Position numbers and translations under genes: made by a program. Of a DNA stretch of 64,000 nucleotides, positions 49,620-62,520 are shown piece by piece (positions within the stretch are counted from its first letter, which is position 1; the number at the start of each line of letters is the position of its first letter). Source of the stretch: a virus; the IMG/VR virus record IMGVR_UViG_3300032315_000747, positions 17,900-81,899 of that record; one strand, 5' to 3'. The notes beneath the pieces are model-generated. The model did no database searches. It saw only the letters and a list, made by a program, of their open reading frames with translations, and was not told the origin of the DNA.

Positions 49620-50222
49620 TTACATAGCTGTAGGACCGTTACCTTGGCGAAACCCGATCTGACCACCTTGATCTTTGATCCGTTGAATCACTTCTTCGAA
49701 CAAGATAGGGGTGTAATTGATCTGCTCTACGCTCACGCAATAGTACCTAGGATCTATTTCGTCCCCATAAATGATAGTTTTTGTTTCGTCGTCAAACCCG
49801 ATCGGCTTCTTCACTTGGTTACCATGCAAATGACCATGTATGTTTTTGTGGAATCTTGCTAGACTGGATTCGTGGACAGGGATATGTGACATAATGCAAC
49901 CGTTCATCACATGATAAGCTCGGATGTCACGAAAGTACCTAGTGTAATCAGACAGCCTGAAGATGTCGTGATTTCCCTTGATCAATACCTTATCACCATT
50001 CAGTCGATCCAAGATCGACAGATGCTTGCGATTGATAACGACATCACCCAGAAAATATGTCTTATCCTTTGGACCCACAGCCTCATTATAGCGCCGAACC
50101 ATCTCCTCATCCATTTCATTCACATCATCCCATGGACGCAAAGGAGTTCCATCGTAATTTGTAAACTTACAAATATTTGCGTGTCCAAAATGCGGATCAC
50201 TATATAAAAAAACGCTAGGCAT
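49620..50222 (-). CDS. Metallophosphoesterase
   Basis: SDPHFGH, LGDV, KGNHD, SHIP, IHGHLH. Confidence 0.9.
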   Translation of the reverse strand: MPSVFLYSDPHFGHANICKFTNYDGTPLRPWDDVNEMDEEMVRRYNEAVGPKDKTYFLGDVVINRKHLSILDRLNGDKVLIKGNHDIFRLSDYTRYFRDIRAYHVMNGCIMSHIPVHESSLARFHKNIHGHLHGNQVKKPIGFDDETKTIIYGDEIDPRYYCVSVEQINYTPILFEEVIQRIKDQGGQIGFRQGNGPTAM

Positions 50223-50278
50223 GTCTTATCTCCATTTATTATACTTACAATATAACAGATTGGGTAAGATGTCAAGCC

Positions 50279-50521
50279 TTATTTTTCAGGAAGATTTTTC
50301 TTACGCCAATGTGTTAACACTGAAACTACGAAAGTTGTCACCACGAGAGTGACAACGAATAACGCAGATCCATAATACGAGACGAATTCTGCTGCACCTG
50401 CTATGATCATAGCAACTATAACAGTTAGGATCGTCAATCCTAAGATTGTTTTGATGATAGGAAAAATACTATCACTCCATTGTTGGCATACTTCTTTAAC
50501 AGAATCAAATAGCTTACTCAT
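50279..50521 (-). CDS. Small membrane protein
   Basis: Two TM helices. Confidence 0.55.
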   Translation of the reverse strand: MSKLFDSVKEVCQQWSDSIFPIIKTILGLTILTVIVAMIIAGAAEFVSYYGSALFVVTLVVTTFVVSVLTHWRKKNLPEK

Positions 50522-50957
50522 TTGTTTTCTCTTTTTTTAACAATTCGATTAATCGATATTGATCTGCTAATTTATCATAGTGGTCATATGACAGCAAGGC
50601 GAGATCGGGGTGTTTGTTTTCTAGTGTATAGTCTCTGTTGTCTAGTTTGAGCCTAAACCATCGTTCTTCGTATAGATGAGGATCAACTATGTCTTTAAAA
50701 GAAGTATAAGGTATATTTTTAGTAGTGTCTGTAGTCTCGATGAACTTTATATATTCGCTGGTCTTGATTAGTCTTCCATCACCTTCACACTTTTCGCAAC
50801 TAGGCCTAAATGTGATGTATGTTCGTTTATGATAGTTATCTAACTTTTGGGTCGTGAAAAAGCCGAGACCATCGCAGTTGTCACAGAGAATGACCTCGTT
50901 CTTGCGAACAAGGATACCGGTAACAAGTTGAGGAAGGTCTGTGACTTCGATACTCAT
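50514..50957 (-). CDS. DnaJ-type CxxCxGxG Zn-finger protein
   Basis: CDNCDGLG, CEKCEGDG. Confidence 0.65.
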   Translation of the reverse strand: MSIEVTDLPQLVTGILVRKNEVILCDNCDGLGFFTTQKLDNYHKRTYITFRPSCEKCEGDGRLIKTSEYIKFIETTDTTKNIPYTSFKDIVDPHLYEERWFRLKLDNRDYTLENKHPDLALLSYDHYDKLADQYRLIELLKKEKTNE

Positions 50958-51033
50958 AAATTACTTTATACTATATATTTATAGTAAGGTCAACCGCATA
51001 ATCAAGTTTATTTAGAATATCTGATGTTTTGGA

Positions 51034-51924
51034 TTAATTAGCCAAGATGTATGGTTGAGAATTCAAAACATATCTAAGGGTAGAATCCCCAAACATTTTT
51101 TCATATGGGTATCTAAATAACCAATCAAAAGGGCGGTGGCTTGGTTTGTCATGGTACTTCAATCGGTTAGTTTTATCCATCAAAACATATTGATGACTGT
51201 CGTAATGTTCTTTAAACTTCTCAAATCCAGTATACTTCTGCTCCTGTGCTATCACAGGAAACCCGATATCTTGGTATTCAATAACTCGTCGATAATACCC
51301 TAATTCTTCTAATACCATAGTACCAATATGTTTATTAGAATACCTAACATAATTAAGACTGTATGCCAATTCCGGAGTATGCAAGAAAAAATAAGGAATA
51401 GTATTTTTCCCTTCATCCGTCATACTAAATCTATGTATGCCTAATATGGCAGAAGACAGTTCTGCAACATTGCGTGATAGAAAGTTTCCAGAAAAAATAG
51501 AAGTACCGGATAATAGTGTTGCCATTTTTATATGCATAGCTACCTGTGGACTACTACATTGATATTTTCTTGCTATATTGTCATACTCGTTTTCTAAAAA
51601 TCCAAAGTAGTCAAAATCAATGATTTGATACTTTATGTTTTCTTGTTCACAGAATTGAGGTAATGTTTTTATGTCGTGCCAGTTAAAATTTTGGTTATAT
51701 CGAAACGAGATAGCATTGAATGGATGATTCGACTTCTTCCATGCATACAGCATAGCTTGACTATCTATGCCGCCACTCACTAATACATTATAAGGAGCAG
51801 GATAATTTCTTACAATATCGTTTACTGCTTCGATTGCTGCTGACAATGGTGATTTCACGGTTTCTTTAAATTTAGTAACCGTGAAATCTAATAGTTTGCT
51901 ATCGATCTTAACCCAATCATGCAT
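51034..51924 (-). CDS. N-type ATP pyrophosphatase (asparagine synthase/PP-loop-like)
   Basis: VLVSGGIDSQ PP-loop; likely start ATG 51924 just after the subtilase stop. Confidence 0.65.
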   Translation of the reverse strand: MHDWVKIDSKLLDFTVTKFKETVKSPLSAAIEAVNDIVRNYPAPYNVLVSGGIDSQAMLYAWKKSNHPFNAISFRYNQNFNWHDIKTLPQFCEQENIKYQIIDFDYFGFLENEYDNIARKYQCSSPQVAMHIKMATLLSGTSIFSGNFLSRNVAELSSAILGIHRFSMTDEGKNTIPYFFLHTPELAYSLNYVRYSNKHIGTMVLEELGYYRRVIEYQDIGFPVIAQEQKYTGFEKFKEHYDSHQYVLMDKTNRLKYHDKPSHRPFDWLFRYPYEKMFGDSTLRYVLNSQPYILAN

Positions 51925-51931
51925 AGTTACA

Positions 51932-53566
51932 TCATTGGCATCCACATTGTCCAGCTTTTGGAGGATTACATGCACACTCCTGCGAGAAGTCGCAAAATCG
52001 CCCTGCACAATTTTCGGGGCCCCCGAAGGTACAAGGTATGGCCACGTTATCACAATTGTTAAGGTTCAACTGATAAGGAATGATAGGATTTACAGCATAA
52101 GATACATTGTGTATAGGTAAAATTTTCAGAATTACGATTTTGAGGATCCCATCACTGGTATTCCCGTTTACGTCAGTTACACTCAACGAAACCGTATGCT
52201 CTTCCTTCTCCCCTTCTACCGATTCAATGTATCCGCTCAAAATTCCATAATTATTGATGATTAATCCGTTTGGCAGAGGATCATGCAAGGTAACAGAAGA
52301 AACGGTCATGGGATTGAATAAGGTTACTCTGACTGGTGCTCCCGCAAATATTGCAGCGAACAGCAATGGTTCCGATCCTTGTGCATCGTAAGGGCTAACC
52401 ATGTCTGTGATCAAAAGGCTAACCAAATTAGGAGAATTTTGATATTTAGGATCATCTAATAACAATAACCCTCTTTTAGCAAGAAACGATACATTGTTTC
52501 TTGTTGCATTATTCCAGATCGCATTAACCGTATCATCAAACTGAAAAGGAGGCAATGCTACGTTATATGCGATGATCGCAGAATGAATAGCTGCTGACAT
52601 CGAAGTTCCGGAAGAAAAGCCACAACTTCCATCTAATTTAGCAGCGTAAATATCTTCTCCGGGTGCCCATCCCGAAAGCTTGCCGCCGTTAGTACTACCT
52701 GACGTTACGCTAATGGCTGATGTTCCGGTATAATCTGAGAAGTCACACGGTAATAGAGAAGAATTGTATGCCCCGACTACGATTGATTCGGGCATTGCTG
52801 CAGGAGTTACATCACCGATGTCAGACCCATCGTTTCCAGAAGCAACCACGATCTGTATTCCTGCTCGGAACAAGGTCTGCATCTTTGCTTCGATGTATTC
52901 GTTTCTTGCAATTGCCCAGCTACAATTCATTATACCATACGAGGTGTTTGTCGCGAAGTCGTTGTATACCGCGTCCATTGCACCCAAGAAATCACTGAGT
53001 CTAGTAGGAACTTCAGTATCAAACAACTTAACTACTTTGAGTTTTGCATTAGTGATTCCGCAAGTTTTACCTACGATCACACTTGCAAGAGCAGTACCGT
53101 GACCTTTTCTATCAACGAAGTCGTCAGTGAGTGAGTACAAGCATTCGATATCTGCACCTTGGAATTCTGGATGATCCAGCTTGATCCCACTGTCTAGTAG
53201 ATATACGACTGCCCCGGCGCCGCTTAATGGAAGCTGGAAGCTAGGAGCATCTAAGTCTACTACAGACCCACTATAAACTTTCCACCAATCTTTTTGATCG
53301 CTAGTTTGAACTGTCTTGCTGCCTTCAGCAGGAAGGACGGGCATTTGGATAGGAATAGTAGTCAACAGTTTGATGTGATTGGTGTGATCATCATCTTTAA
53401 TATGTTCTACGATGTCACTAGCAGGCGGGACTTCTGAACATTCTACTAGTACTACTTTTTCGAACGCATTGAAGCTCTTGATTATAGATGCTCCGCACGA
53501 ATTTAAGTATGAGTTGATGTCTGCGGCTGTAGCACTATTAACAAAGTCAATAATATATTGTTGCAT
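51932..53566 (-). CDS. S8 subtilisin-like protease with Ig-like domain and Cys-rich tail
   Basis: LLDSGI (Asp), GHGT (His), ASGN, SGTSMSA (Ser); C-terminal 8-Cys tail. Confidence 0.9.
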   Translation of the reverse strand: MQQYIIDFVNSATAADINSYLNSCGASIIKSFNAFEKVVLVECSEVPPASDIVEHIKDDDHTNHIKLLTTIPIQMPVLPAEGSKTVQTSDQKDWWKVYSGSVVDLDAPSFQLPLSGAGAVVYLLDSGIKLDHPEFQGADIECLYSLTDDFVDRKGHGTALASVIVGKTCGITNAKLKVVKLFDTEVPTRLSDFLGAMDAVYNDFATNTSYGIMNCSWAIARNEYIEAKMQTLFRAGIQIVVASGNDGSDIGDVTPAAMPESIVVGAYNSSLLPCDFSDYTGTSAISVTSGSTNGGKLSGWAPGEDIYAAKLDGSCGFSSGTSMSAAIHSAIIAYNVALPPFQFDDTVNAIWNNATRNNVSFLAKRGLLLLDDPKYQNSPNLVSLLITDMVSPYDAQGSEPLLFAAIFAGAPVRVTLFNPMTVSSVTLHDPLPNGLIINNYGILSGYIESVEGEKEEHTVSLSVTDVNGNTSDGILKIVILKILPIHNVSYAVNPIIPYQLNLNNCDNVAIPCTFGGPENCAGRFCDFSQECACNPPKAGQCGCQ

Positions 53567-53581
53567 TGTAGTTAATCCCTA

Positions 53582-53812
53582 TTATCCCTGCTGATTTCTT
53601 TTTACTTTATTCCACTTGCCAACAGGACATTCTGCAAAGGGAAGATATGTTTTCGCCGCCATAATACACTTGCATTGAGTACACTGAGTAGTCAATGAAA
53701 CGAAATGTTCGCATGACTTACAAATGTCGTACCTAACATCTCTTTCCTCTTCGGATAGAGGAGCGGCAGCATCTTTTAAATCCTGGAGTCTCTGTTTAAG
53801 TATTTCTATCAT
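53582..53812 (-). CDS. Small Cys-rich protein
   Basis: R..ICKSCEH...QCTQCKC.M..KT.....CPVGKW; late promoter upstream. Confidence 0.7.
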   Translation of the reverse strand: MIEILKQRLQDLKDAAAPLSEEERDVRYDICKSCEHFVSLTTQCTQCKCIMAAKTYLPFAECPVGKWNKVKRNQQG

Positions 53813-53858
53813 AGATTTATTTATCTTTGTCTCACTGAATGCTATAAATAATTTATGC

Positions 53859-54320
53859 ATGTACTCCACGAATGATATCAAATCAATATCTTTTGCAGAA
53901 ATACTTCCTATATGGAAAAACGATCTATGGCCAAATAGAGTTAGTGAGATCACGGCTACTAGCGCCATGTGTTTTTTAGGAGGATATTCTTACGAAAATA
54001 TGGAGAGTAGTCCAACTTTTCTTGGTTACTTCGTGAACAATGAACTAGTTGGCGTGAACAGCGGACACTATACTAAACATAACGATGGGTATCGTTCTAG
54101 GGGATTATACGTATTTCCCGAATTTAGGCGGCAGGGTATAGGAATCGCATTATTGAAGGCAACTATCGCATGGGCTAAAAACGAAAATGCAACAATGTGC
54201 TGGAGTTATCCAAAATATTCTAGTTGGAAAACATATCAGGCTGCTGGATTTATGTTAGCTAGTGACTGGGAAAAATCAGAAATGAGCGACAAGAATGCAT
54301 ATTGTAGGTTTGAATTTTAG
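53859..54320 (+). CDS. GNAT acetyltransferase
   Basis: RGLYVFPEFRRQGIG; TATAAATA at 53843. Confidence 0.85.
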   Translation: MYSTNDIKSISFAEILPIWKNDLWPNRVSEITATSAMCFLGGYSYENMESSPTFLGYFVNNELVGVNSGHYTKHNDGYRSRGLYVFPEFRRQGIGIALLKATIAWAKNENATMCWSYPKYSSWKTYQAAGFMLASDWEKSEMSDKNAYCRFEF

Positions 54321-54808
54321 TACCATTGCCCTTCATTGCGTATTCTCTTAATGAATGTACAGTATACACTAGTTATACCATAACAACGCAATTTAACAGT
54401 GCTAAGCATGCCTCTATCTACAATCTCAGGCAAATAAACAACACTGTTGTTGTCAATAGGCACGTTTCCAGGAACGATAGTTTGGCCTCCAGTAGAGACT
54501 GTCGGGCTTGCTTCTGTAGCAACATTGCTGAATATGAACACGTTAGGGTATAGCTTTCTAGGCTGTGCTAGTAGATAGTCATATGCATCTTGATTTTGAC
54601 AGTTAAGCCAAAATCGATTGCCTTGTAGATAACGATCAGTGACTTCTACCCAATCATTCTCTCTACCAAGATAGAGTTTATCATTAAATCTCCATACATC
54701 AACCATGCAGGAAAACCCGTTATTGAAGGCTTTGCCTATCTGTCCCGGGGTGTTAGCAGACTCAAAGTTCTGCCCGTCATATATACCTTGGTAGCTGATT
54801 ATTAACAC
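54317..54808 (-). CDS. GDPD/PLC-like phosphodiesterase (divergent)
   Basis: GTG start after TATAAATA; LIISYQG...ANTP...VDVW. Confidence 0.5.
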   Translation of the reverse strand: MLIISYQGIYDGQNFESANTPGQIGKAFNNGFSCMVDVWRFNDKLYLGRENDWVEVTDRYLQGNRFWLNCQNQDAYDYLLAQPRKLYPNVFIFSNVATEASPTVSTGGQTIVPGNVPIDNNSVVYLPEIVDRGMLSTVKLRCYGITSVYCTFIKRIRNEGQWY

Positions 54809-54829
54809 AAATGTATTTATACTAATGTT

Positions 54830-54904
54830 TGGAGCGGGTGAGCGGATTCGAACCGCTGACAGCTTCGTTGGCAACGAAGGGCTCTACCACTGAGCTACAC
54901 CCGC
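54830..54904 (-). tRNA. tRNA-Gly(GCC)
   Basis: Cloverleaf; anticodon loop TTGCCAA; encoded CCA. Confidence 0.95.
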
Positions 54905-55025
54905 ATTAACTTCTAGACACATGGGCCCTGCAAGACTGGATCAGTCATTTATCGGTTCTACCAGCAGTTCACCATGTATACACTATATGCCGTCCCCGGA
55001 ATGTTTCATATAATGTGTCTAATTT

Positions 55026-55106
55026 TGGAGCGGATAGGGAGAGTCGAACTCCGGCCTTTCGGATCAGATTGGAAATCTGATGCGTCCCCCTTACGCAACT
55101 ACCCGC
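55026..55106 (-). tRNA. tRNA-Gly(TCC), atypical 8/4 fold with extended variable arm
   Basis: 8-bp acceptor, 4-bp T-stem, loop TTTCCAA, U73-CCA. Confidence 0.8.
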
Positions 55107-55187
55107 ATTAATTTCAAAATTTACTTAATATACTTGTTCTTGACCTCAATGTCAAGAACTATTTTGCCTATTATTAAAAAAAACACA

Positions 55188-55455
55188 GAAGGAAAAAAGT
55201 AAGTGATAGACTGTGCAATCTGCATCGGTGTCTCATACAAGAACAACCCGTCAAACAACTTACAAGCGACAACGTGCAAAACTAACTTATGCTCAAACCA
55301 CAATGTGCAACAAAATAGGTTTGACTCATGCTAGTATGGAGCGTTTCAAGCGCCTGATCAATGTTTCATTACTGAAACGTAAGTGCCTACTCTCGTCTCT
55401 CTTTTCCTTCCGGGTAGTTTACAGGTACTCTAAGAGTCTAACCTGCATAACTACC
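55188..55455 (-). ncRNA. Candidate structured RNA with UUG repeats
   Basis: 12-bp closing stem (55399-55410 / 55188-55199), upstream long hairpin, about 12 UUG triplets. Confidence 0.5.
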
Positions 55456-55512
55456 AAACTCATCGATGATTGTGATCTACCTTAACGTCGGTTAGACCAA
55501 CAATATGCCCCC

Positions 55513-56076
55513 TTAGAGAATGTTCTCGTTAGTGAGCGTAGCAACAGTTGCATCTGAAAACTCAATTTCAGTGCGGACGTTCAACTCGAGGAGTTCGTCC
55601 TGCAACTTCTGCTTCTGCTTCTTAGTAGAAGCCACGATACCCTTGAAACTTTCAAGCACACTTTCGTTAAAGATAGAAGTGTCGACCTTCTCGTCTCGGT
55701 AAGAATAAGCATCTTCTTTGCGGGTACGAATCTTTTCTAGCTTGCCGTAAATCACAGCGGAATCGGTAATGACCGAAGCCTTTGCATACGTGCTGTAGAA
55801 CTGAAGGTCCTTTTCAAGGCGAGCAACGTCAGCAAGACGGTTATCGATGCCTGTGCTATCATTTGCCGACGCAACAGCCTTACGAATCTCGTAAAGGGCA
55901 TCAAGCAAAGCAATACGCCGAGCGAGGTTGCGAGAAAACTTCGCAGATGCGGCACTAATCTCATTAGCAGCGTCTTGGAACTCGTTGATGCTAGCAAAAG
56001 CATTGAATTCAAGGCCCTTGATAGTTTCGTTGATCGCTACTTGAATAGCGTTGGCCTTGCGTAGATTGATCTTCAT
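55513..56076 (-). CDS. Coiled-coil protein
   Basis: MKINLRKANAIQ...KQKLQDELLELN; AGGA RBS. Confidence 0.75.
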   Translation of the reverse strand: MKINLRKANAIQVAINETIKGLEFNAFASINEFQDAANEISAASAKFSRNLARRIALLDALYEIRKAVASANDSTGIDNRLADVARLEKDLQFYSTYAKASVITDSAVIYGKLEKIRTRKEDAYSYRDEKVDTSIFNESVLESFKGIVASTKKQKQKLQDELLELNVRTEIEFSDATVATLTNENIL

Positions 56077-56151
56077 TTGTGTTTCCTTTGTTTCTATTTT
56101 CTCACTATAGTATAAACGATCACTGTTGTACAGTGTTTTGGGTATTAAAAA

Positions 56152-56226
56152 TGGCGCCGATGAGGGATTGCGACACCCCGACCTTCCGCGTGACAGGCGG
56201 ACGCTCTTCCTCTGAGCTACACCGGC
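56152..56226 (-). tRNA. tRNA-Asp(GTC), non-canonical T-loop
   Basis: Anticodon loop CTGTCAC; T-loop GTCGCAA. Confidence 0.8.
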
Positions 56227-56279
56227 ATTATCTTTTTACACGATACTACAATACGATAGTCAATCGCTTTGGGTAAGTT

Positions 56280-56356
56280 TGGTGACAGTAGTTAGACTCG
56301 AACTAACGACATTTGACGTATGAGGCCAACGCTCTAACCAACTGAGCTATACTGTC
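56280..56356 (-). tRNA. tRNA-Met(CAT), elongator type
   Basis: Loop CTCATAC; paired 1:72, no initiator GGG stem. Confidence 0.9.
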
Positions 56357-56362
56357 ATTGAA

Positions 56363-56438
56363 TGGTACTAGGTATTGGATTTGAACCAATCCACCGAGTT
56401 CCACAAACTCGTGTGCTAACCGCTAACACTAACCTAGC
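56363..56438 (-). tRNA. tRNA-His(GTG)
   Basis: Loop TTGTGGA; G1:U72, A73, no encoded G-1. Confidence 0.92.
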
Positions 56439-56440
56439 TT

Positions 56441-56475
56441 AGATTTAAAAGTCAGATACTCTACCTAACTATACC
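56441..56475 (-). pseudogene. tRNA-Lys(TTT) remnant
   Basis: TAGGTAGAGTATCTGACTTTTAAATC aligns to the D/anticodon region of tRNA-Lys(CTT) at 57182. Confidence 0.55.
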
Positions 56476-56489
56476 AATGATATAAAGAT

Positions 56490-56564
56490 TGGTAGTCGAT
56501 GTAGGTACCGCCCCTACCGTCTCCCGCTTATCAGGCGGGTGCTTTACTTCTAAGCTAATCGACC
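56490..56564 (-). tRNA. tRNA-Ile(GAT), non-canonical D/T loops
   Basis: Loop CTGATAA; T-loop GGCGGTA; D-loop lacks GG. Confidence 0.8.
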
Positions 56565-56609
56565 TTTATTATACTAGAGTTCGAGCGTGACAATTTACTT
56601 TAGTGTACC

Positions 56610-57002
56610 TTAGCAGAAGGTCTTCAATGACTTGATGTCATCACCGATGAAGTCTTCACGAATCGGGCCGATGCCAAGACAAACCGTGGTCGGTTCATCA
56701 AATACCGTGAAGCCCGCGTCCGTTACAAGACTGGTTCCGCATACATTCTTGTATGCTTCTTGCAATGCCTTCAACTCATCAACCGTATCTACGATCAGAG
56801 TGATCTTATATGCATGGTCGCTTTCACGATATGCTCTAGCCTGATCTAGGAATCTCATAGGATCTCCTACAGGACCAGACTTCATAGCATCCCAATAAGC
56901 GTGCAGGTAAGCATGTCCGCTCATCGAAGCAAGTTTGCCACGTATGCCGTTCATTTTCTTTACCGATTCAAGGGCAAAGATAGCGTACATCTTATACTTC
57001 AT
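56610..57002 (-). CDS. Peptidyl-tRNA hydrolase type 2 (Pth2)
   Basis: GKLASMSGHA, KITL, VTDAGFTVF.EPT.VCLGIGP. Confidence 0.85.
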   Translation of the reverse strand: MKYKMYAIFALESVKKMNGIRGKLASMSGHAYLHAYWDAMKSGPVGDPMRFLDQARAYRESDHAYKITLIVDTVDELKALQEAYKNVCGTSLVTDAGFTVFDEPTTVCLGIGPIREDFIGDDIKSLKTFC

Positions 57003-57160
57003 TTATTTTTCTTTCTATTGCCGTAATGCTTTTTCCACGCTTCGTCTGTATAGGCAGGACCGTTTCTACTCAGGAGAAGTTCTCGTTCCTCAGGATCCAT
57101 ACTCACCCATTCTTGACGAGTATATCTCTTACCCGTTTTAGCTAATACTAATCCAGACAT
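56999..57160 (-). CDS. Small hypothetical protein
   Basis: AGGAGGAG RBS before MSGLVLAK. Confidence 0.55.
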   Translation of the reverse strand: MSGLVLAKTGKRYTRQEWVSMDPEERELLLSRNGPAYTDEAWKKHYGNRKKNK

Positions 57161-57181
57161 TTTCTCCTCCTTTCTAATGTT

Positions 57182-57257
57182 TGGTGGGCGCAGCAGGAAT
57201 TGAACCTGCGACATTCTGATTAAGAGTCAGACACTCTACCTACTGAGTTATGCGCCC
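57182..57257 (-). tRNA. tRNA-Lys(CTT)
   Basis: Loop CTCTTAA; CCA. Confidence 0.95.
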
Positions 57258-57368
57258 AAAATTTCTTTGTCTTTACCAAACGTATATCGGCAGTCACACA
57301 TGCATTCTCTTAGCCGATTCGCCCTATGTCATCAGGTGACTTCAATCGGTACCGAGGTGTTTAGTATT

Positions 57369-57450
57369 TGGAGCACCGGGTAGGAATCGAACCTACTCTA
57401 CTTACGAAGCGGATTTGCAGTCCACCGCATTCCCAATCTGCCACCGGTGC
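57369..57450 (-). tRNA. tRNA-Cys(GCA) with 12-nt variable region
   Basis: Loop CTGCAAA; U73; variable region TTCGTAAGTAGA. Confidence 0.88.
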
Positions 57451-57457
57451 ATTATTC

Positions 57458-57709
57458 TTAAGTATACGATGCAAAATCTGCTGCGATTTTGGCATGTCGT
57501 TCATACCAAAGATGGCCGCTACTAACTGCTACGAGATAGTCAGATGCCCAATTTTTAGGATCCTCAATACCATGCCTAGTATCACATTCAATCGCCACTT
57601 TACGAAGACGCTTGATTGCTGCGTTGAGCGTGTTACGATGTGCTTTGGTGTTGCGAAGATCAGTCACTGTCCGCATTGCGGCAGCTAATTCATGTACCGA
57701 ATCGCTCAT
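57458..57709 (-). CDS. Hypothetical early protein
   Basis: AAGGA RBS; early promoter at 57737-57774. Confidence 0.65.
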   Translation of the reverse strand: MSDSVHELAAAMRTVTDLRNTKAHRNTLNAAIKRLRKVAIECDTRHGIEDPKNWASDYLVAVSSGHLWYERHAKIAADFASYT

Positions 57710-57736
57710 GTATCGTTCCTTTGCTCTATTCAATCT

Positions 57737-57774
57737 CTATGATTCAATATAGCAAAACGGGTAACCAATGTCAA
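57737..57774 (-). promoter_or_regulatory. Early promoter repeat
   Basis: Reverse complement TTGACATTGGTTACCCGTTTTGCTATATTGAATCATAG. Confidence 0.75.
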
Positions 57775-57915
57775 CCTTTTTCGAAGGTCTCAGCTAGCTT
57801 GTTGAACTTTTGCATCATCGCATCTCGTTTCGCATACACGACGAATCCTTTGGAACATCATATACTTGATATCCTTATGAAGTCACCACTAACAAGCAGC
57901 TAAACAACCGATTGT

Positions 57916-58908
57916 TTAGCGTCTCCACCAAAGATAGCGCCTGACGAACTTGTCCATCCAAGCTTGCTGTGGCCCACTTAGTTCATCGTATACATATGCG
58001 GTAAAGAGTTCGGCGAAAAATTCTAAAGTATTGGTGCGGGCGTAATCAGTCGGGAACCAATCGTCTCCGTTCTTTGACCACGAAAGAGAAAAATATTTGA
58101 TCAGCGACGGGAAGAATGAACTCGGGACGCTCTGGTGTAGAATGTGGCCCAATTCATGAATGACCGTCTCGGCCATATCTGCCGCAGGCCTTCGGCTGTC
58201 TACCCATATCCGTCCAAAACCTAACATCGGAGCTATTCCAGTACTATCGGTGGGCAATTCGAAAAATTCTACTTTAGCAGAACGGATCAATGGGATCAGG
58301 CCATGATTGTCGAGTAGATCACACGCTTGACGGAAGGCGCGTTCACAGTCACGAAAATCGTATTCATCAATCGTCCCGTCAATGAGACCACGTACCCCTT
58401 TGTATACAATTTTCTGTGCTTTTTTAGGTCCGTAAAGTCCCAAATTGATTGGGATATTTTTGAGATCAAGCTTGAGCATTGGCTCTTTCTCATATTCGTC
58501 GTCATCATCCCAGCCTTCATAGATCGGGTCGATTGATTCTGTTTTATCTCTGCGTTGCAGTCTGGCCGCCCGCGCCGAAATGATGTAGGTCAGAATATTG
58601 CCGATCTCGTGTTTTCTCGCGATGTTTGATAGCTCTGCTTTTTGCTTCTCAAGTTTAGTGATCTGTTCGTGAGAAGAAGTACCTCTGATCTGATCCTCTA
58701 TTTGGGCCCACGCCGCCGCTAGTTCAGTCGCGATTTGGTGCTTTTTTTGATTTGTTTCAGGAGAACCATAACGCGGATAATCTGTCCGCTTATCACGCGC
58801 AAATTCACCAGATACTGGAAAAGTATCGGGTGCTCTTTGATCTGGGCCTTGGGTATGAATACCCTCACAGATCGAGATTAGTTTTCGCATGTCTGTACGA
58901 CTATCCAT
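57916..58908 (-). CDS. Zincin metallopeptidase-like late protein
   Basis: VIHELGHILH...YARTN..EFFAE; ATAAATA and GAGGA upstream of ATG 58908 (the longer ORF start lies inside a tRNA). Confidence 0.7.
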   Translation of the reverse strand: MDSRTDMRKLISICEGIHTQGPDQRAPDTFPVSGEFARDKRTDYPRYGSPETNQKKHQIATELAAAWAQIEDQIRGTSSHEQITKLEKQKAELSNIARKHEIGNILTYIISARAARLQRRDKTESIDPIYEGWDDDDEYEKEPMLKLDLKNIPINLGLYGPKKAQKIVYKGVRGLIDGTIDEYDFRDCERAFRQACDLLDNHGLIPLIRSAKVEFFELPTDSTGIAPMLGFGRIWVDSRRPAADMAETVIHELGHILHQSVPSSFFPSLIKYFSLSWSKNGDDWFPTDYARTNTLEFFAELFTAYVYDELSGPQQAWMDKFVRRYLWWRR

Positions 58909-58947
58909 AAATAGTATCCTCAAGGTTGATACACTATTTATGCCATA

Positions 58948-59038
58948 TGGTGGAGGGTGAGGGATTCGAACCCTCGGTACCTTTGAAAGGTACAATGGTT
59001 TAGCAAACCAGCCCATTCGGCCACTCTGGCAACCCTCC
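58948..59038 (-). tRNA. tRNA-Ser(GCT)
   Basis: Loop TTGCTAA; long V-arm. Confidence 0.93.
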
Positions 59039-59427
59039 TAGATATTCAGATGCTTTTTTGCATTCACGATGTAAGCATCAATTCTTTCTTTTCCGATCGG
59101 GTTCATTGAATGCACCATATAGTTGGGAAACATTAACCCTATTTCAGCGCAATGATGTACCAACCATTTAGCACAATCGTAACCTGATTTTTCAACACCA
59201 TAGTCTACATGTTCCTTACCTTCACACTCTTGAAGCATTGCTACATAGTGTTCATCAGCTAGGTCATGGTCGAACGTGACAAAGTTTGGAATACCGTTAT
59301 TAATGATGCAATCAACGAATTCGTCATAACTACGAACAACCTCATAGACATGGTCACGGGGAATCTGTACCCAAAGCACATCGTTTGGGCAACGAATATC
59401 GTCTAGAAAAAGATAGTATCCAGGCAT
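59038..59427 (-). CDS. Cyclic-phosphate-processing receiver-like domain protein
   Basis: LFLDDIR, TFDHDL, SGYDCAKWL, VHSMNPIG. Confidence 0.75.
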   Translation of the reverse strand: MPGYYLFLDDIRCPNDVLWVQIPRDHVYEVVRSYDEFVDCIINNGIPNFVTFDHDLADEHYVAMLQECEGKEHVDYGVEKSGYDCAKWLVHHCAEIGLMFPNYMVHSMNPIGKERIDAYIVNAKKHLNI

Positions 59428-59457
59428 TGTCTTTCCTTGATTTCATACGAACAATAT

Positions 59458-59541
59458 TGGTGGGGGAAGTAGGACTCGAACCTACGAAGCTTTCGCAGCG
59501 GATTTACAGTCCGCCCCCTTTGCCGCTCGGGACATTCCCCC
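59458..59541 (-). tRNA. tRNA-Tyr(GTA)
   Basis: Loop CTGTAAA; V-arm. Confidence 0.95.
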
Positions 59542-59552
59542 GTATATTATGT

Positions 59553-59643
59553 TGGAGGAAGCGGTGGGATTCGAACCCACGGAACCCTTTCAGGTTCATC
59601 GCATTTCAAGTGCGGTGCCATAAACCAACTCGACCACGCTTCC
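59553..59643 (-). tRNA. tRNA-Ser(TGA)
   Basis: Loop CTTGAAA; V-arm. Confidence 0.93.
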
Positions 59644-59653
59644 GTATTAATAT

Positions 59654-60154
59654 TTATGTAGCTACTTTAGCCGCAGACTTTTTCTGTCTGTATTCTCGGT
59701 CATACGCTCTACCGTTGCCTCTATTTTTACTTTTGTAAGTAGGTAGCTGTGCATCACAGTTACAACACACTAATCTAAAATTCTCAATTCTATTATCAGT
59801 GCTATCTCCGGAGATATGATCGCATACTAGCGGAATCGGCTGACCTTGCCACTCTTCGGTTCCGCACATACTGCACTTATTCCCAGTTTCTTCTATTAAG
59901 TACGCTCTTGCATGCCTCCTAGCTACTGTTTCACAATAATCGCTTAATTTACCATTTTCAACTATGTCTTTTCTACGAGCAGAAATTTTGGCCTCATCGT
60001 GCTTTCCTTTGTTCCAAGCAACTGTTCCCTTTTTAGCACCTGCATTTGGAGAATGCTTATGCTTTATTCGGTTAGGATTGTTCTTGCAACTCATTTCGTG
60101 AGCCGTTAGCGAACCCTTATTTGATATTTCTCGTTCACAATACTGACACTTCAT
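59654..60154 (-). CDS. HNH homing endonuclease
   Basis: CQYC...H...C, AWNKG, CSMCG, DHISGD..DN..ENFRLVCCNC. Confidence 0.88.
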   Translation of the reverse strand: MKCQYCEREISNKGSLTAHEMSCKNNPNRIKHKHSPNAGAKKGTVAWNKGKHDEAKISARRKDIVENGKLSDYCETVARRHARAYLIEETGNKCSMCGTEEWQGQPIPLVCDHISGDSTDNRIENFRLVCCNCDAQLPTYKSKNRGNGRAYDREYRQKKSAAKVAT

Positions 60155-60227
60155 AGTAATCTCCTTACTACTATTTATGCTTTATTGCAAATAAACAGCA
60201 AATAAGTGCGTTTAACCATAAGAAAGT

Positions 60228-60268
60228 TGGTGCGCCCGAGAGGATTTGAACCGCTCACCCACGCTTCC
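60228..60268 (-). pseudogene. Chimeric tRNA remnant
   Basis: tRNA-Ser-like 5' end GGAAGCGTGG joined to a different T-arm/3' end GGTTCAAATCCTCTCGGGCGCACCA. Confidence 0.65.
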
Positions 60269-60282
60269 ATATTAATATTTAT

Positions 60283-60960
60283 TTAATCACATTCGGCAAC
60301 TAAAGAAAGTCCTTCAATTAGTGGTCGCATAGACTTTCTGATATTTCTGATCTTCATCATTTCCGGAATGATTTTATTTCTAAGTACGTTTCTTTCATGA
60401 CAGTTCAACATGTTGGTCTCGTCTTCTACCCATTCAAGTTTGTTAGATAGTGCAGTGTAAATTAAATCTGCCTTTTCTACCTCTAAGAGAGGCTTATACT
60501 TGACATAATTCTTTTCTGTTTCTGATAGCTTCTGCATGACCAGATTCTTAGAACCTCGCATGGAAGCCATGAAGTATTGCTCTAAATTGTCATCATAATG
60601 ATGTGCAGTTAGTACTACATTTTTCCCAGAAAAGTTACTTAACGTGTCGTCAACGAATTTCCATCTTTGTTTCCTTGCCTCATGCTCTTGGTTGGAAATA
60701 TTAGCTAAACCGTTGCCATACCCTGAGTAGAATCTAAGATTGTATGTTTGTGCATACGAGATAACTACATTCATGTCGCTGAAGTCAGATGAACGGATCA
60801 TGTGCCTGAAATGAATCGCGATGGTGTCTGAACGGATTTTTCTTACTAGGTCCAGAAGAACCATACTATCAACACCGCCTGATACCATGACAAACACGTT
60901 ATCATATTTGTCTAGTTCAATGGAGATTTCTTTTTTGAGCTTTCTCCAAGATACGGGCAT
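60283..60960 (-). CDS. tilS: tRNA(Ile)-lysidine synthetase (catalytic domain only)
   Basis: VSGGVDSMVLL, HFRH, AR..R, LTAHHYDD..E, KPLL, WVEDETN, RNVLR..IIP. Confidence 0.88.
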   Translation of the reverse strand: MPVSWRKLKKEISIELDKYDNVFVMVSGGVDSMVLLDLVRKIRSDTIAIHFRHMIRSSDFSDMNVVISYAQTYNLRFYSGYGNGLANISNQEHEARKQRWKFVDDTLSNFSGKNVVLTAHHYDDNLEQYFMASMRGSKNLVMQKLSETEKNYVKYKPLLEVEKADLIYTALSNKLEWVEDETNMLNCHERNVLRNKIIPEMMKIRNIRKSMRPLIEGLSLVAECD

Positions 60961-60979
60961 GATTGTCTCTCGTTAAAAA

Positions 60980-61055
60980 TGGTGCGCCGTGAGGGATTCG
61001 AACCCCCAACCTGCGGATTATGAGTCCGACGCTCTAACCGTTGAGCTAACAGCGC
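60980..61055 (-). tRNA. tRNA(CAT), probably Ile2
   Basis: Loop CTCATAA; C4:G69; directly upstream of tilS. Confidence 0.85.
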
Positions 61056-61087
61056 GTTATTTGGTGTCAAGTGAAATAACTACATTA

Positions 61088-61306
61088 CTAAAGTAGATTT
61101 TTCAACCAACCGTCTGCAAACTTTTGCACAACATCATCGGCTGTTATATATTCGTCGTAACTATTAATAGCATCTGCTACATCAAGTACGTCATCTTCAT
61201 CAAGACCCAGTGTCCTAAGACCGTCTAGGTAATAATCCAGTGCTGACATGGTTAGCCTTTCTTCATTGGCTTTATTACTGAAGTCTACGTGAATCACATT
61301 ATCCAT
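61088..61306 (-). CDS. Hypothetical protein
   Basis: AAGGAG RBS before MDNVIHVDF. Confidence 0.65.
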   Translation of the reverse strand: MDNVIHVDFSNKANEERLTMSALDYYLDGLRTLGLDEDDVLDVADAINSYDEYITADDVVQKFADGWLKNLL

Positions 61307-61356
61307 GTTTAGCTCCTTGTCAAGTTGAAATGGTAGCCCGAACGGTGTGTTAGTTT

Positions 61357-61649
61357 TGGTATGAGCGGGGGGACTCGAACCCCCACGGAGTACTCCAACG
61401 GATTTTCTTACCACTATAGCTTTCGCTACCTTCGCAGTTTGTGGTCTGGACTATACCTTCACCGTTGCTTTTGCTTTAGGTGCTCGCCGTCTAGTCTCTA
61501 CACGTTCAAAGATATTTCTATCTAAGCTTCGCTCGGGATTGCCATCTTACAGGGTTCCCCGAATTTGACGAGTTCTACTCTACGGGTTTCCCCGAAGGCA
61601 CTCAAATTATGTCTAAGTCCGGTGCGTCTACCAATTCCGCCACGCTCAC
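61357..61649 (-). tRNA. tRNA-Leu(TAA), intron-containing (exons 61615-61649 and 61357-61406)
   Basis: Joined exons give GTGAGCG...GGACTT^AAAATCCG...CGCTCATACCA. Confidence 0.9.
61407..61614 (-). ncRNA. Group I self-splicing intron (208 nt)
   Basis: Follows exon U and ends in omega-G; core TAGAGACTAG (R) and AAGGTATAGTCC (S). Confidence 0.88.
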
Positions 61650-61789
61650 ACATTGAATGTAAAATATGTCTAACAATGTCAAAGAACATAGAAAGCTCAT
61701 CGCTGCTCTCTCTATGTTCTCAATATACGACATGATCAGGGTAATGTCAATAACTAATTTTAGTTTGCGAGATTATTTTTAAAGATAGT

Positions 61790-61864
61790 TGGCATAGGTA
61801 CTAGGATTTGAACCCAGGCGTTTGGTTTTGGAGACCAACATGCTACCGCTAACATCATACCTAC
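61790..61864 (-). tRNA. tRNA-Trp(CCA)
   Basis: Loop CTCCAAA; G73. Confidence 0.92.
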
Positions 61865-61869
61865 ACAGT

Positions 61870-62265: not shown

Positions 62266-62322
62266 CTCATAAACCTTTCTTTCAATTTTACTGTCAGACA
62301 GTAGAGTATTTATCAAAAAAGC

Positions 62323-62355: not shown

Positions 62356-62361
62356 TAAGAA

Positions 62362-62436: not shown

Positions 62437-62443
62437 CTTATTT

Positions 62444-62520
<77 letters not shown>

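What the first reader, a model, noticed from the sequence alone, without database searches (positions are those of the whole stretch)
55188..56076. Coiled-coil gene followed by a ~270-nt structured RNA with periodic UUG repeats
Seen on the - strand after the stop codon: a long hairpin (55413-55455), then a domain closed by GAAGGAAAAGAG/CTTTTTTCCTTC (12 bp, ~200 nt apart). Its 3' half has about 12 UUG triplets in ~100 nt, including UUGCACAUUGU and UUGCACGUUGU, followed by a U-rich end. No credible ORF is present. Inference: a protein-RNA pair in which an oligomeric coiled-coil protein binds repeated triplets (by analogy with TRAP or type III antitoxin RNAs), embedded in the tRNA cluster. I cannot assign it to a known family.
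Basis: partly seen in the sequence, partly recalled or inferred. Interest (0 to 1): 0.7.

Follow-up and report, generated by a model that had tools for sequence, protein, structure and literature searches.

The report
Phage heptad-UG RNA with partner protein
The "empty" 270 bases behind this small helical-protein gene encode a real folded RNA that shows UG motifs exactly seven bases apart and always travels with that protein gene in large tRNA-rich phages, so it is probably an undescribed RNA-protein particle whose job is still unknown.

Summary
On the minus strand, 55186-55458 is a ~273-nt structured RNA: a 5' hairpin, a 14-bp closing stem and inner hairpins.

RNA side: on 51 distinct homologues, 93.9% of pair cells are paired, against 35-50% when partners are slid. 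31 of 33 pairs show compensatory changes. The only invariant bases are UG/UUG motifs exactly 7 nt apart, in three single-stranded clusters of 2+4+2. No Rfam family matches.

Protein side: the 187-aa protein has no Pfam, NCBIfam or PADLOC family. It is a confident helical fold and is predicted to form a symmetric homodimer.

Linkage: starting from the protein, 79 of 80 viral loci carry the RNA on the same strand; the one miss is a cut contig. Starting from the RNA, 68 of 70 loci carry the protein; both misses lie at locus edges. It is the only protein family in 72 of 72 non-redundant neighbourhoods. The RNA lies upstream or downstream of the gene. The same layout occurs in cultured Caulobacter and Brevundimonas phages.

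Physical binding and function are untested. The closest analogy is HutP reading UAG-N4 repeats; this is analogy, not membership.

This scan reached the same reading earlier on other DNA (e1-6115260, e1-5984361).

The parts
55513..56076 (-). Gene of the 187-aa helical partner protein. It matches phrog_25230 (unknown function) and has no Pfam, NCBIfam or PADLOC family.
   Evidence: ORF. Family scans. AF2 model has mean pLDDT 91.7. Homodimer prediction scores 0.74 against a best control of 0.00. The family has 1448 representatives at the 50% clustering level.
55460..55504 (-). Relic 3' end, including the TGA stop, of a 138-139-aa ORF. Close relatives carry this ORF between the protein gene and the RNA; it is deleted in this genome.
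   Evidence: Alignments. The ORFs in L035, L036 and L039 are listed. They match no family.
55186..55458 (-). The whole structured RNA, about 273 nt. It begins with a conserved UUUG and ends with the 3' strand of the closing stem.
   Evidence: nhmmer homology in 79 of 80 loci. Covariation: 93.9% of cells paired, 31 of 33 pairs with compensatory changes, 0 of 500 shuffles as good. No Rfam match at E <= 1.
55413..55455 (-). H1, the 5' hairpin. Its basal stem GGUAG/CUACC covaries; its top is variable.
   Evidence: Helix 1: 6 pairs, 5 with changes on both sides, 95.6% of cells paired.
55399..55412 (-). P1 closing stem, 5' strand (purine-rich).
   Evidence: Structure. Helix 2: 12 of 12 pairs with changes on both sides.
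55186..55199 (-). P1 closing stem, 3' strand (pyrimidine-rich).
   Evidence: Its many G-U pairs would be A-C mismatches on the other strand, so the fold belongs to the gene's strand.
55385..55390 (-). P2, 5' strand (GUAGGC). It pairs with 55206-55211.
   Evidence: Helix 3: 6 of 6 pairs with changes on both sides, 96.1% of cells paired.
55206..55211 (-). P2, 3' strand (GUCUAU).
   Evidence: helix 3.
55363..55378 (-). P3, a variable hairpin (GUUUCA...UGAAAC).
   Evidence: It is present but realigned in relatives.
55340..55354 (-). P4 hairpin (GGCG-CUUGAAA-CGCU).
   Evidence: pairs 123-126 with 134-137, one with a compensatory change. Its sequence is conserved in many relatives.
55281..55335 (-). 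P5/P6 hairpin. Its internal loop holds an invariant UG (55328-55327), and its apical loop carries UG cluster A.
   Evidence: Helices 4 and 5: 8 of 9 pairs with changes on both sides.
55301..55309 (-). UG cluster A: UG (55309-55308) and UUG (55303-55301), 7 nt apart, in the apical loop.
   Evidence: Invariant in 51 of 51 RNAs. The spacing is 7 in 51 of 51.
55256..55278 (-). UG cluster B: four UG/UUG motifs, each 7 nt apart, with Gs at 55277, 55270, 55263 and 55256. The stretch is single-stranded.
   Evidence: The Gs are conserved in 51, 51, 50 and 50 of 51 RNAs. The spacings are 7 in 51, 51 and 50 of 51.
55227..55248 (-). P7, a facultative hairpin inserted between clusters B and C.
   Evidence: It is absent in 12 of 51 RNAs. 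In those, B and C join into one six-heptad run in exact register.
55216..55224 (-). UG cluster C: UG (55224-55223) and UUG (55218-55216), 7 nt apart.
   Evidence: Invariant in 51 of 51 RNAs. The spacing is 7 in 51 of 51.
55176..55183 (-). U run two bases after the closing stem. It may mark 3' end formation.
   Evidence: Seen. U-rich tails occur in many relatives. The terminator scan did not call it, because the loop is too long for its rule.
55127..55155 (-). Sigma-70-like promoter (TTGACA, 17 nt, TATATT; 11 of 12 matches). It restarts transcription for the next tRNA gene and is not part of the RNA.
   Evidence: It is conserved in close relatives.

Best explanation
The locus encodes a two-part phage ribonucleoprotein module.

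Part 1 is a stable, trans-acting RNA of about 273 nt. It is transcribed on the gene's strand, often as part of a tRNA operon. Its helices (H1, P1, P2, P5/P6 and facultative hairpins) act as a scaffold. The scaffold holds eight UG (mostly UUG-Y) motifs single-stranded and in strict 7-nt register: two in an apical loop and six in the 3' junction, the six split 4+2 here by hairpin P7.

Part 2 is a 187-aa helical protein that forms a symmetric dimer. I infer that several copies of the protein, plausibly four dimers, read the phased UG motifs. Each site would recognise the UG and ignore the spacer, as HutP does with UAG-N4 repeats. The RNA and protein would then function only together.

Shown: the RNA structure, the phased invariant UGs, the obligate two-way genetic linkage, and the absence of any known family.
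Predicted: the dimer.
Inferred: the binding, the stoichiometry, and any role, which may lie in tRNA, translation or RNA metabolism of large tRNA-rich phages.
For: RNA is real:
- On 51 distinct homologues, 33 pairs in 5 helices are 93.9% paired, against 35.4-50.1% with partners slid.
- There are 374 double-change cells, against 45-75 when slid. No shuffle of 500 reaches the observed values.
- Frequent G-U pairs make the fold strand-specific.

Phased sites:
- The only invariant columns are UG/UUG.
- Spacings inside clusters are 7 nt in 50-51 of 51 RNAs, while spacer bases are free.
- Summed over 58 RNAs, UG-UG pairs number 398 at lag 7 and 244 at lag 14, against 73-161 at other lags from 2 to 13.
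- When P7 is missing (12 of 51), clusters B and C fuse in exact register.

Linkage:
- From the protein, 79 of 80 loci carry the RNA. The protein identities are 44-91%. The miss, L037, ends 247 nt after the gene.
- From the RNA, 68 of 70 loci carry the protein. Both misses lie within 151 nt of a locus edge.
- The two parts are always on the same strand, and either order occurs: 52 loci with the RNA downstream, 27 upstream.
- The protein is the only family in 72 of 72 non-redundant neighbourhoods; the next family is in 16.

Cultured phages:
- In the 7 Caulobacter and Brevundimonas phages inspected, an unannotated gap of 284-314 nt follows the homologue.
- The gap has a covarying 15-bp closing stem.
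- It also has UG heptad runs of 5-6 units.

Protein:
- The AF2 model has mean pLDDT 91.7.
- The homodimer score is 0.74 against a best control of 0.00. That mark was reached by 20 of 30 proteins solved as pairs and 1 of 23 solved as single chains. The runs agree in at least 98% of contacts, and pLDDT is at least 91.
- The residues conserved across 52 diverse members are mostly polar or basic: R6, K7, Q12, R65, N72, K152, K155, D160, N166.
- Most of these lie outside the predicted dimer interface.
Against: - No experiment or model here shows that protein and RNA touch. The tools cannot fold RNA-protein complexes.
- Expression of the RNA is not shown.
- A two-fold symmetric dimer does not obviously read tandem sites 7 nt apart on a directional strand. 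A higher-order, rotationally symmetric assembly has to be assumed and was not tested.
- Counts of phased UGs vary from 7 to 14 per RNA once chance extras are included. The mode is 8, in 16 of 58 RNAs. The stoichiometry is therefore a reading, not a count.
- In three Brevundimonas phages the lag-7 excess is not significant taken alone: 29-39 of 200 shuffles reach it.
- nhmmer does not link the RNAs of the cultured phages or of the Arenicellales genomes to the family. Their membership rests on position, size and architecture.
- Tight linkage could also come from co-expression without binding.
Confidence: 0.6

Rival explanations
1. The RNA is a sponge or decoy for a host factor, and the phage protein only helps it. 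The host factor could be an RNA chaperone, a ribonuclease such as RNase E, or an anticodon-directed nuclease or transglycosylase that reads U-G in 7-nt loops. The phage protein would fold, protect or load the RNA, or act in the same pathway.
For: - The phased single-stranded UG motifs are the only invariant bases. This fits any multivalent reader, not only the neighbouring protein.
- The pair sits among same-strand tRNA genes in 62 of 79 loci.
- All three complete carrier genomes examined hold 25-30 tRNA genes. This hints at tRNA or translation biology.
- From my own recall, not from any call: anticodon loops are 7 nt long with U33 before position 34.
Against: - The motif varies with the phage lineage (UUG-Y here, CUGUG or UGC in Brevundimonas phages). 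It therefore tracks the phage protein at least as well as any conserved host factor.
- The strict one-to-one linkage with a single phage protein family, 72 of 72, is what a direct partner predicts.
- No host factor was identified.
Confidence: 0.15
2. The RNA is a cis-acting part of the protein's own transcript. It could be a UTR, processing, stability or terminator element, or an autoregulatory operator. On this reading there is no separate functional particle.
For: - The RNA abuts the stop codon in 34 of 79 loci, or ends 7-46 nt before the start codon in most of the 27 upstream cases.
- In this window the closing stem is followed by a U run, and a fresh promoter follows.
- Autoregulation by binding one's own mRNA is common in phages. 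This last point is general knowledge, not from a call.
Against: - The element works from either side of the gene.
- It tolerates an inserted ORF, with gaps of 253-424 nt, and in L108 a gap of 1498 nt. A UTR element would not be expected to.
- A 270-nt element of five or more helices with eight phased sites is far more than a terminator or operator needs.
- In six loci it directly abuts tRNA genes, at 0-18 nt, like a separately processed stable RNA.
Confidence: 0.13
3. The locus is a toxin-antitoxin-like or sequestration pair. The RNA would hold an otherwise harmful or regulatory protein inactive, in the manner of type III antitoxin RNAs or CsrB with CsrA, and release it on a signal.
For: - Obligate co-inheritance and adjacency of a small protein gene and a multivalent RNA.
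- Multiple binding motifs per RNA.
Against: - Tandem Repeats Finder finds no array of RNA units (0 rows). Type III antitoxins are arrays of units of about 36 nt (recalled).
- The protein has no nuclease or toxin family. PADLOC gives only E of about 0.003 for 3 of 18 members, and Pfam gives nothing above cut-off.
- The carriers are large phages, cultured ones of the subfamily Dolichocephalovirinae among them, not plasmids or defence islands.
Confidence: 0.08
4. The conserved feature acts at the DNA level, for example as iterons, an origin or a packaging site, or it is a chance composition effect. On this reading it is not an RNA.
For: Short repeated words at fixed spacing also occur in replication origins. 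This is general knowledge, not from a call.
Against: - Compensatory changes keep base pairing in 31 of 33 pairs.
- G-U pairs are frequent, for example 15, 14 and 23 sequences at single pairs. These would be A-C mismatches on the other strand.
- The element always has the orientation of the protein gene and of the tRNA genes.
Confidence: 0.02

Closest known systems
HutP with the hut terminator/antiterminator RNA of Bacillus subtilis
   Same: - An oligomeric protein reads short invariant motifs separated by four free bases, giving a 7-nt period (UAGNNNNUAGNNNNUAG).
- The motifs fall into two groups, which wrap two faces of a D3 hexamer.
Source: PMC2425495. I read its outline and the passages found for 'spacer', 'hexamer' and 'UAG'.
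- Here too there are invariant UG motifs, free spacers, a strict 7-nt period and separate clusters.
   Different: - There is no homology. The protein here is an all-helical predicted dimer with no Pfam family. That HutP is an alpha/beta hexamer is my recall plus the paper.
- The motif is UG or UUG-Y, not UAG.
- The sites sit on a 270-nt covarying scaffold RNA, which can lie on either side of the gene or apart from it. They are not in a leader terminator that controls a downstream operon.
- No ligand is known.
TRAP with the trp leader RNA of Bacillus (recalled, not read here)
   Same: A ring-shaped protein binds many phased triplets with free spacers on single-stranded RNA.
   Different: - As I recall, TRAP is an 11-mer of beta-sandwich subunits that reads (G/U)AG with 2-3-nt spacers in a cis-acting attenuator.
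- Here the period is 7 nt, the motif is UG, the protein is helical, and the RNA is a separate structured molecule.
- There is no sequence family match.
DIP1984-like protein of Corynebacterium diphtheriae (PDB 3kdq), function unknown
   Same: It is the best solved-structure match to the AF2 model: Z 10.8, rmsd 6.7 A, 142 of 152 residues aligned; Foldseek E 5e-3.
   Different: - The match is middling for a helical protein. The tool's own note says Z under about 13 may mean only a common arrangement.
- A profile search of PDB sequences finds no significant hit; the best E is 0.13, to an unrelated protein.
- The matched structure has no known function, so it explains nothing.
Small stable RNAs encoded in the tRNA region of phage T4 (recalled, not checked with any tool)
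   Same: Non-tRNA stable RNAs that are co-transcribed with a phage tRNA cluster and have unknown function.
   Different: - As I recall, they are shorter and have no known dedicated protein partner or heptad motif.
- No Rfam family of any kind matches the RNA here.
Type III toxin-antitoxin systems (ToxIN type; recalled)
   Same: A small protein gene adjacent to a repetitive non-coding RNA that binds the protein.
   Different: - There is no tandem array of RNA units.
- There is no endoribonuclease or toxin family.
- The repeats here are 7-nt phased motifs inside one folded molecule.

Membership tests
Any Rfam 15 RNA family | A covariance-model match at or near the family's gathering score | tested here: not met
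   - cmscan at E <= 1 over window 50000-64000 gives 34 matches, none inside 55107-55512.
- The same scan over 7 further loci gives no match at their RNA positions. The loci include CcrColossus, Kikimora and Domovoi.
HutP / hut RNA system | Protein of the HutP family (alpha/beta hexamer) | tested here: not met
   - Pfam scan of 18 family members at E <= 1 lists no HutP family.
- The AF2 model is all-helical apart from two short strands.
- No HutP chain appears among the top fold matches. That last point is absence from a list, so it is weak on its own.
HutP / hut RNA system | Three-base XAG motifs separated by four free bases (7-nt period), in two groups | tested here: inconclusive
   The period of 7 and the free spacers are met: 50-51 of 51 RNAs. 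The motif, however, is UG or UUG-Y, not UAG. This is the same geometry with a different code.
HutP / hut RNA system | The RNA is a cis-acting terminator/antiterminator in the leader of the regulated operon | tested here: not met
   - The RNA lies downstream of the gene in 52 loci and upstream in 27 of 79. It can be separated from the gene by an ORF or by 1498 nt.
- It is a closed multi-helix domain.
TRAP / trp leader | TRAP-family beta-sandwich subunit, and (G/U)AG repeats with 2-3-nt spacers | tested here: not met
   - No Pfam family matches.
- The fold is helical.
- The period is 7 and the motif is UG.
The defining features themselves are recalled.
Type III toxin-antitoxin | Antitoxin RNA made of tandem direct repeats of tens of nucleotides | tested here: not met
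   Tandem Repeats Finder at minimum score 30 gives 0 rows on 55100-55520.
Type III toxin-antitoxin | Endoribonuclease toxin of a known family (ToxN, AbiQ or CptN type) | tested here: not met
   - PADLOC gives only HamC2 in 3 of 18 members and HEase in 1 of 18, at E of about 0.003.
- Pfam gives nothing above cut-off.
tmRNA/SmpB, RNase P RNA, 6S, SRP and Y RNA (stable RNAs that may accompany tRNA genes) | A match to the family models, or tmRNA detection by ARAGORN | tested here: not met
   - ARAGORN finds only tRNAs.
- Rfam at E <= 1 has no such match at the RNA.
phrog_25230 (phage protein family of unknown function) | Profile match over the whole length | tested here: met
   E 2.4e-7, residues 1-178 on profile positions 1-183 of 192. 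The family has no annotated function.
DIP1984-like fold (PDB 3kdq) | Structural superposition over most of the chain, together with sequence relatedness | tested here: inconclusive
   - Z 10.8, rmsd 6.7 A, 142 residues aligned.
- Foldseek E 5e-3, TM 0.44-0.52.
- No sequence-profile match to any PDB chain at E < 0.1.

The most novel reading that the evidence does not exclude
This is a new class of viral ribonucleoprotein. A scaffold RNA presents exactly eight UG sites in 7-nt register, as 2+6 or as 2+4+2 when a hairpin is inserted. The sites nucleate a defined assembly of a helical protein, for example four dimers or a D4-like octamer with four sites per face, in the way HutP's D3 hexamer uses three per face. 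Large tRNA-rich phages carry the particle to act on host or phage tRNA, translation or RNA turnover, or to blunt an RNA-directed defence. It would be a phage-borne RNA-protein machine with no cellular counterpart described so far.
Probability: 0.35. Interest if true: 0.9.

Novelty: categorically new. Interest (0 to 1): 0.8.

Why it matters
- Structured non-coding RNAs with a dedicated protein partner are rare finds in phages. Those known from cells, such as tmRNA-SmpB, RNase P, 6S and CsrB-CsrA, each opened a field.
- This pair is widespread. The protein family has 1448 representatives at the 50% clustering level, and well over 100 viral contigs carry the RNA.
- It has no entry in Rfam, Pfam, NCBIfam or PADLOC.
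- Its sequence logic is unusually legible: eight invariant UGs in 7-nt register on a covarying scaffold. That makes direct predictions for mutagenesis and structure work.
- It occurs in cultured phages of Caulobacter crescentus/vibrioides and Brevundimonas pondensis, so it can be tested at the bench now.
- If the particle acts on tRNA or translation, it would bear on why large phages carry big tRNA sets.
- The RNA-protein recognition code (UG plus a 7-nt ruler) could be of use as an orthogonal RNA tag.

Tried and rejected
- Known RNA families: none matches.
- Known protein families: Pfam, PHROGs, NCBIfam and PADLOC give nothing informative. PDB sequence profiles give nothing either.
- Protein Atlas: only viral hypothetical clusters. 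One cluster carries DUF6847 in 19% of its members. This lead was not confirmed by the Pfam scans.
- Cultured phages by BLAST: queries with the window protein and with L093 found nothing in the phage collection. Only more divergent queries reached them.
- DNA patterns: the patterns returned extra contigs. nhmmer showed these to be chance matches.
I did not build a partial model. I used nhmmer profiles and the count of structure pairs instead. The cultured-phage and Arenicellales RNAs are therefore linked to the family by position, size and architecture, not by a model score.
I did not try it again and fetched contexts with the search for related loci and the DNA search.
- Expression: no RNA holder is listed for the stretch. 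The two coded runs, guessed to be RNA and kept as contigs, carry only relatives' pieces of the protein gene (85-95% alike, 55705-56124). Nothing lies over the RNA. This says nothing about expression.
- Coding reading of the RNA: rejected. Open frames are not conserved and the period is not 3.
- DNA-level repeat reading: rejected because of the strand-specific G-U pairs.
- Phage lineage: four large window ORFs match no PHROG. The 777-aa ORF has one weak phage hit. The lineage stays unplaced.
- Intervening ORFs in relatives: no family.
- Literature: six full-text searches found no description of this RNA or protein. In the phiCbK genomics paper (PMC3556154) the terms non-coding, noncoding, small RNA, tmRNA, intergenic and CcrColossus turned up no passage that describes this RNA. 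Subscription journals are not covered.
Full report
**What is there.** The window is part of an 81.9-kb virus record that CheckV rates 23% complete, so it is a fragment of a very large phage.
- On the minus strand a 187-aa ORF (55513-56076) lies inside an array of same-strand tRNA genes. ARAGORN finds 18 tRNAs in the window. Rfam adds one at 56493-56564.
- After the stop codon come 45 nt, then a hairpin (55413-55455).
- Next is a purine-rich strand (55399-55412) that pairs with a pyrimidine-rich strand about 200 nt further on (55186-55199).
- A U run follows, then a near-consensus promoter (55127-55155; 11 of 12 matches) and tRNA-Gly.
They include 12 UUG triplets within about 98 nt.
- The 406-nt stretch folds better than shuffles: z = -2.63, and 1 of 100 shuffles does as well.

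**It is a conserved structured RNA.**
- A first search found seven viral contigs with the protein at 73-91% identity. The six that reach far enough share the whole element at the DNA level.
- A profile of 18 protein homologues then retrieved 80 viral loci at 44-91% identity. That call matched 266 stretches, confirmed 178 as relatives, and kept the best 80.
- A two-round nhmmer search found the RNA in 79 of the 80, always on the gene's strand. The single miss, L037, is a contig that ends 247 nt after the gene.
- I aligned 51 distinct RNAs. RNAalifold predicts 35 pairs, 31 of them with compensatory double changes.
- For the 33 pairs of five helices, 93.9% of cells are standard pairs, against 35.4-50.1% when the 3' partners are slid by 1-3 columns.
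- The same 33 pairs have 374 double-change cells against 45-75 when slid. No shuffle of 500 reaches the observed values on any of the five measures.
- G-U pairs are frequent, so the fold exists only on the gene's strand. This rules out a double-strand DNA feature.
- No Rfam 15 family matches at E <= 1, either here or in seven other loci.

**The heptad UG code.**
- The only invariant columns of the 51-sequence alignment are UG or UUG.
- They form three clusters in predicted single-stranded regions:
  - A, in the apical loop of P5/P6: UG-N5-UUG.
  - B, in the 3' junction: four motifs.
  - C, before the P2 3' strand: two motifs.
- The Gs are conserved in 50-51 of 51 RNAs. The four or five bases between motifs are nearly free.
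- Spacing between successive Gs inside a cluster is exactly 7 nt in 51, 51, 51, 50 and 51 of 51 RNAs.
- In 12 of 51 RNAs the hairpin P7 between B and C is absent. In all 12, the last G of B and the first G of C are exactly 7 nt apart, giving one six-heptad run. P7 is therefore an insertion into a continuous array.
- The core layout is 2+6, or 2+4+2, making eight phased UGs. That is the modal total, seen in 16 of 58 RNAs; higher totals include chance extras.
- Summed over 58 RNAs, UG-UG pairs number 398 at lag 7 and 244 at lag 14, against 73-161 at other lags from 2 to 13.
- Further conserved UGs sit at the 5' end (UUUG at the base of H1, at least 90%) and in the P5/P6 internal loop (51 of 51).
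- Tandem Repeats Finder sees nothing, because only two or three bases per unit are fixed.

**Linkage to the protein.**
- Among the 79 loci, the RNA abuts the stop codon in 34. It lies downstream with a gap of 11-1498 nt in 18, and upstream with a gap of 7-215 nt in 27. These counts include near-identical contigs.
- The converse test started from the RNA.
  - Of the 115 new loci, 70 hold a bona fide RNA (nhmmer E <= 8e-14).
  - Of those 70, 68 also encode the protein on the same strand.
  - The two exceptions, L125 and L186, have the RNA within 151 nt and 39 nt of the locus edge, on the side where the gene would lie.
  - One locus has the protein with the RNA cut off by the edge.
- I pooled 149 RNA-bearing loci into 72 non-redundant neighbourhoods of +/-3 kb. 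The 187-aa family is present in 72 of 72. The next most common same-strand family is in 16. There is no conserved third partner.
- In this window and in L007/L041 the RNA follows the gene directly. Five closer relatives carry a 138-139-aa ORF of no known family in between. The window keeps only that ORF's last 45 nt.

**Setting.**
- tRNA genes lie within the fetched flanks in 62 of 79 loci, and within 1 kb in 55. All are on the RNA's strand.
- In six loci a tRNA abuts the RNA within 0-18 nt. This suggests co-transcription and release by tRNA-processing enzymes; that step is inference.
- The tRNA array is not obligatory. In CcrColossus, Kikimora and Domovoi the pair lies tens of kilobases from the 25-30 tRNA genes of those genomes.

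**Cultured phages and bacteria.**
- Divergent queries reach two Caulobacter phages (CcrColossus, CcrPW) and seven Brevundimonas pondensis phages at 26-37% identity.
- In all seven records I inspected, the homologue is followed by an unannotated gap of 284-314 nt.
- Aligned and folded, these gaps show a 5' hairpin and a 15-bp closing helix with compensatory changes.
- They also show UG heptad runs: six UUG-Y heptads in the two Caulobacter phages, and 5-6 CUGUG or UGC heptads in the Brevundimonas phages.
- nhmmer does not connect them to the metagenomic family, so the assignment rests on synteny and architecture.
- A scan of species-representative bacterial genomes found four loci.
  - Two are MAG contigs with the RNA (E 2e-33 and 3e-28) and, in one, 16 tRNAs.
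  - Two are complete Arenicellales chromosomes at 33-35% identity. There the downstream 280 nt fold into the same hairpin plus a 12-bp closing stem, with z = -2.06.
  - Whether the chromosomal copies lie in prophages was not resolved.

**The protein.**
- It has no Pfam, NCBIfam or PADLOC family and matches only phrog_25230, of unknown function.
- The family is large: 1389 hits in the word-indexed search and 1448 representatives at 50% clustering at E <= 0.001.
- AlphaFold2 gives a confident helical model: mean pLDDT 91.7, five helices and two short strands.
- The best solved match is 3kdq, a Corynebacterium protein of unknown function: Z 10.8, rmsd 6.7 A, 142 residues; Foldseek E 5e-3.
- In the viral structure library it matches uncharacterised proteins of uncultured phages, CcrColossus, an Erwinia phage and a Vibrio phage. 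More weakly, it matches proteins of two giant eukaryotic viruses.
- A two-copy prediction supports a symmetric homodimer but does not show one.
  - The score is 0.74 against a best control of 0.00.
  - That mark was reached by 20 of 30 proteins solved as pairs and 1 of 23 solved as single chains.
  - The runs agree in at least 98% of contacts, and pLDDT is at least 91. My own alignment was used, so the calibration holds only roughly.
- Across 52 diverse members the invariant or near-invariant residues include R6, K7, Q12, R65, N72, K152, K155, D160 and N166.
- Most of these lie outside the predicted interface, on helix 1 and on the long C-terminal helix. They are candidate RNA-contact surfaces; this is inference.

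**How it most likely works.**
- The RNA's sequence conservation is confined to phased, exposed UG motifs, while its helices only covary. It therefore looks like a display scaffold rather than a ribozyme or a guide.
- The one gene that never leaves it encodes a self-associating helical protein with conserved basic and amide side chains.
- The most economical reading is that multiple copies of the protein bind the eight UG sites and form a defined particle.
- The nearest worked example is HutP. Its D3 hexamer reads UAG-N4-UAG-N4-UAG on each of two faces (PMC2425495; outline and found passages read). The geometry is alike. The proteins, the motif and the genetic logic are not, so this is analogy and not membership.
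- Function is open. The company of tRNA genes and of tRNA-rich genomes points to tRNA, translation or RNA turnover. A decoy role against a host factor is the main rival.

**Not established.** Transcription, RNA ends, binding, stoichiometry and phenotype are all untested. No RNA run holds the stretch (reported as tried only).

**Earlier notes of this scan.**
- After I had stated my own reading, look-ups showed that the same pair had been flagged on other genomes, with the same conclusion (e1-6115260, e1-5984361, e1-5984350).
- The notes gave me the identifier of the HutP paper and reinforced the lead to Caulobacter and Brevundimonas phages. I checked both myself.
- These notes are not independent evidence.

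**Novelty.** Six full-text searches and the phiCbK genomics paper gave no description of this RNA or protein. Supplements and subscription journals were not seen. With no RNA or protein family to file it under, I rate it categorically new, with function unknown.

Noticed in passing
window 61431-61624 (-): Rfam group I intron match above the gathering score (58.8 against 50 bits). It lies between tRNA genes, beside a weak tmRNA-model hit at 61357-61435. An earlier first-reader note (e1-6132816) reads it as an intron in a tRNA-Leu(UAA) anticodon.
   Followed up: partly
window 56493-56564 (-): A tRNA found by the Rfam model (52.6 bits) but missed by ARAGORN.
   Followed up: no
window 55460-55504 (-); L035:4074-4493, L036:4071-4487, L039:4074-4493: The window keeps only the last 45 nt of a 138-139-aa ORF. 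Close relatives carry this ORF between the 187-aa gene and the RNA, so it is a recent clean deletion. The ORF matches no Pfam or PHROG family.
   Followed up: yes
window 56610-57002 (-): A PTH2-type peptidyl-tRNA hydrolase (Pfam E 2.6e-12) sits inside the tRNA array. A related ORF family recurs in 7 of 72 neighbourhoods of the RNA.
   Followed up: partly
window 57916-59016 (-): A 366-aa ORF with an HExxH zinc-protease signature. It has a just-below-threshold Pfam hit to a lethal-factor-type metalloprotease domain (26.5 against 27.4 bits). Its listed 5' end overlaps tRNA-Ser (58948-59038), so the real start is probably further in.
   Followed up: no
L085:4940-5011 (+): A near-threshold match to the Rfam freshwater-2 RNA motif (47.1 against 49.9 bits), about 600 nt downstream of the heptad RNA in a related viral contig.
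   Followed up: no
L239:2501-3330 and L240:2501-3330 (complete Arenicellales chromosomes): A 33-35% identical homologue of the protein is followed by about 280 nt that fold into the same 5' hairpin plus a 12-bp closing stem. The pair therefore also occurs in bacterial chromosomes, possibly in prophages.
   Followed up: partly
window 55127-55159 (-): The strong promoter after the RNA has its -35 box inside a 9-bp inverted repeat (GTTCTTGAC...GTCAAGAAC). The repeat is conserved in close relatives and could be an operator.
   Followed up: no
BFVD matches of the protein model: Structural look-alikes occur in Catovirus and Yasminevirus, giant viruses of eukaryotes (TM 0.62-0.64, E 5e-7 to 3e-6). 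They also occur in an Erwinia phage and a Vibrio phage. Whether an RNA accompanies them was not checked.
   Followed up: no
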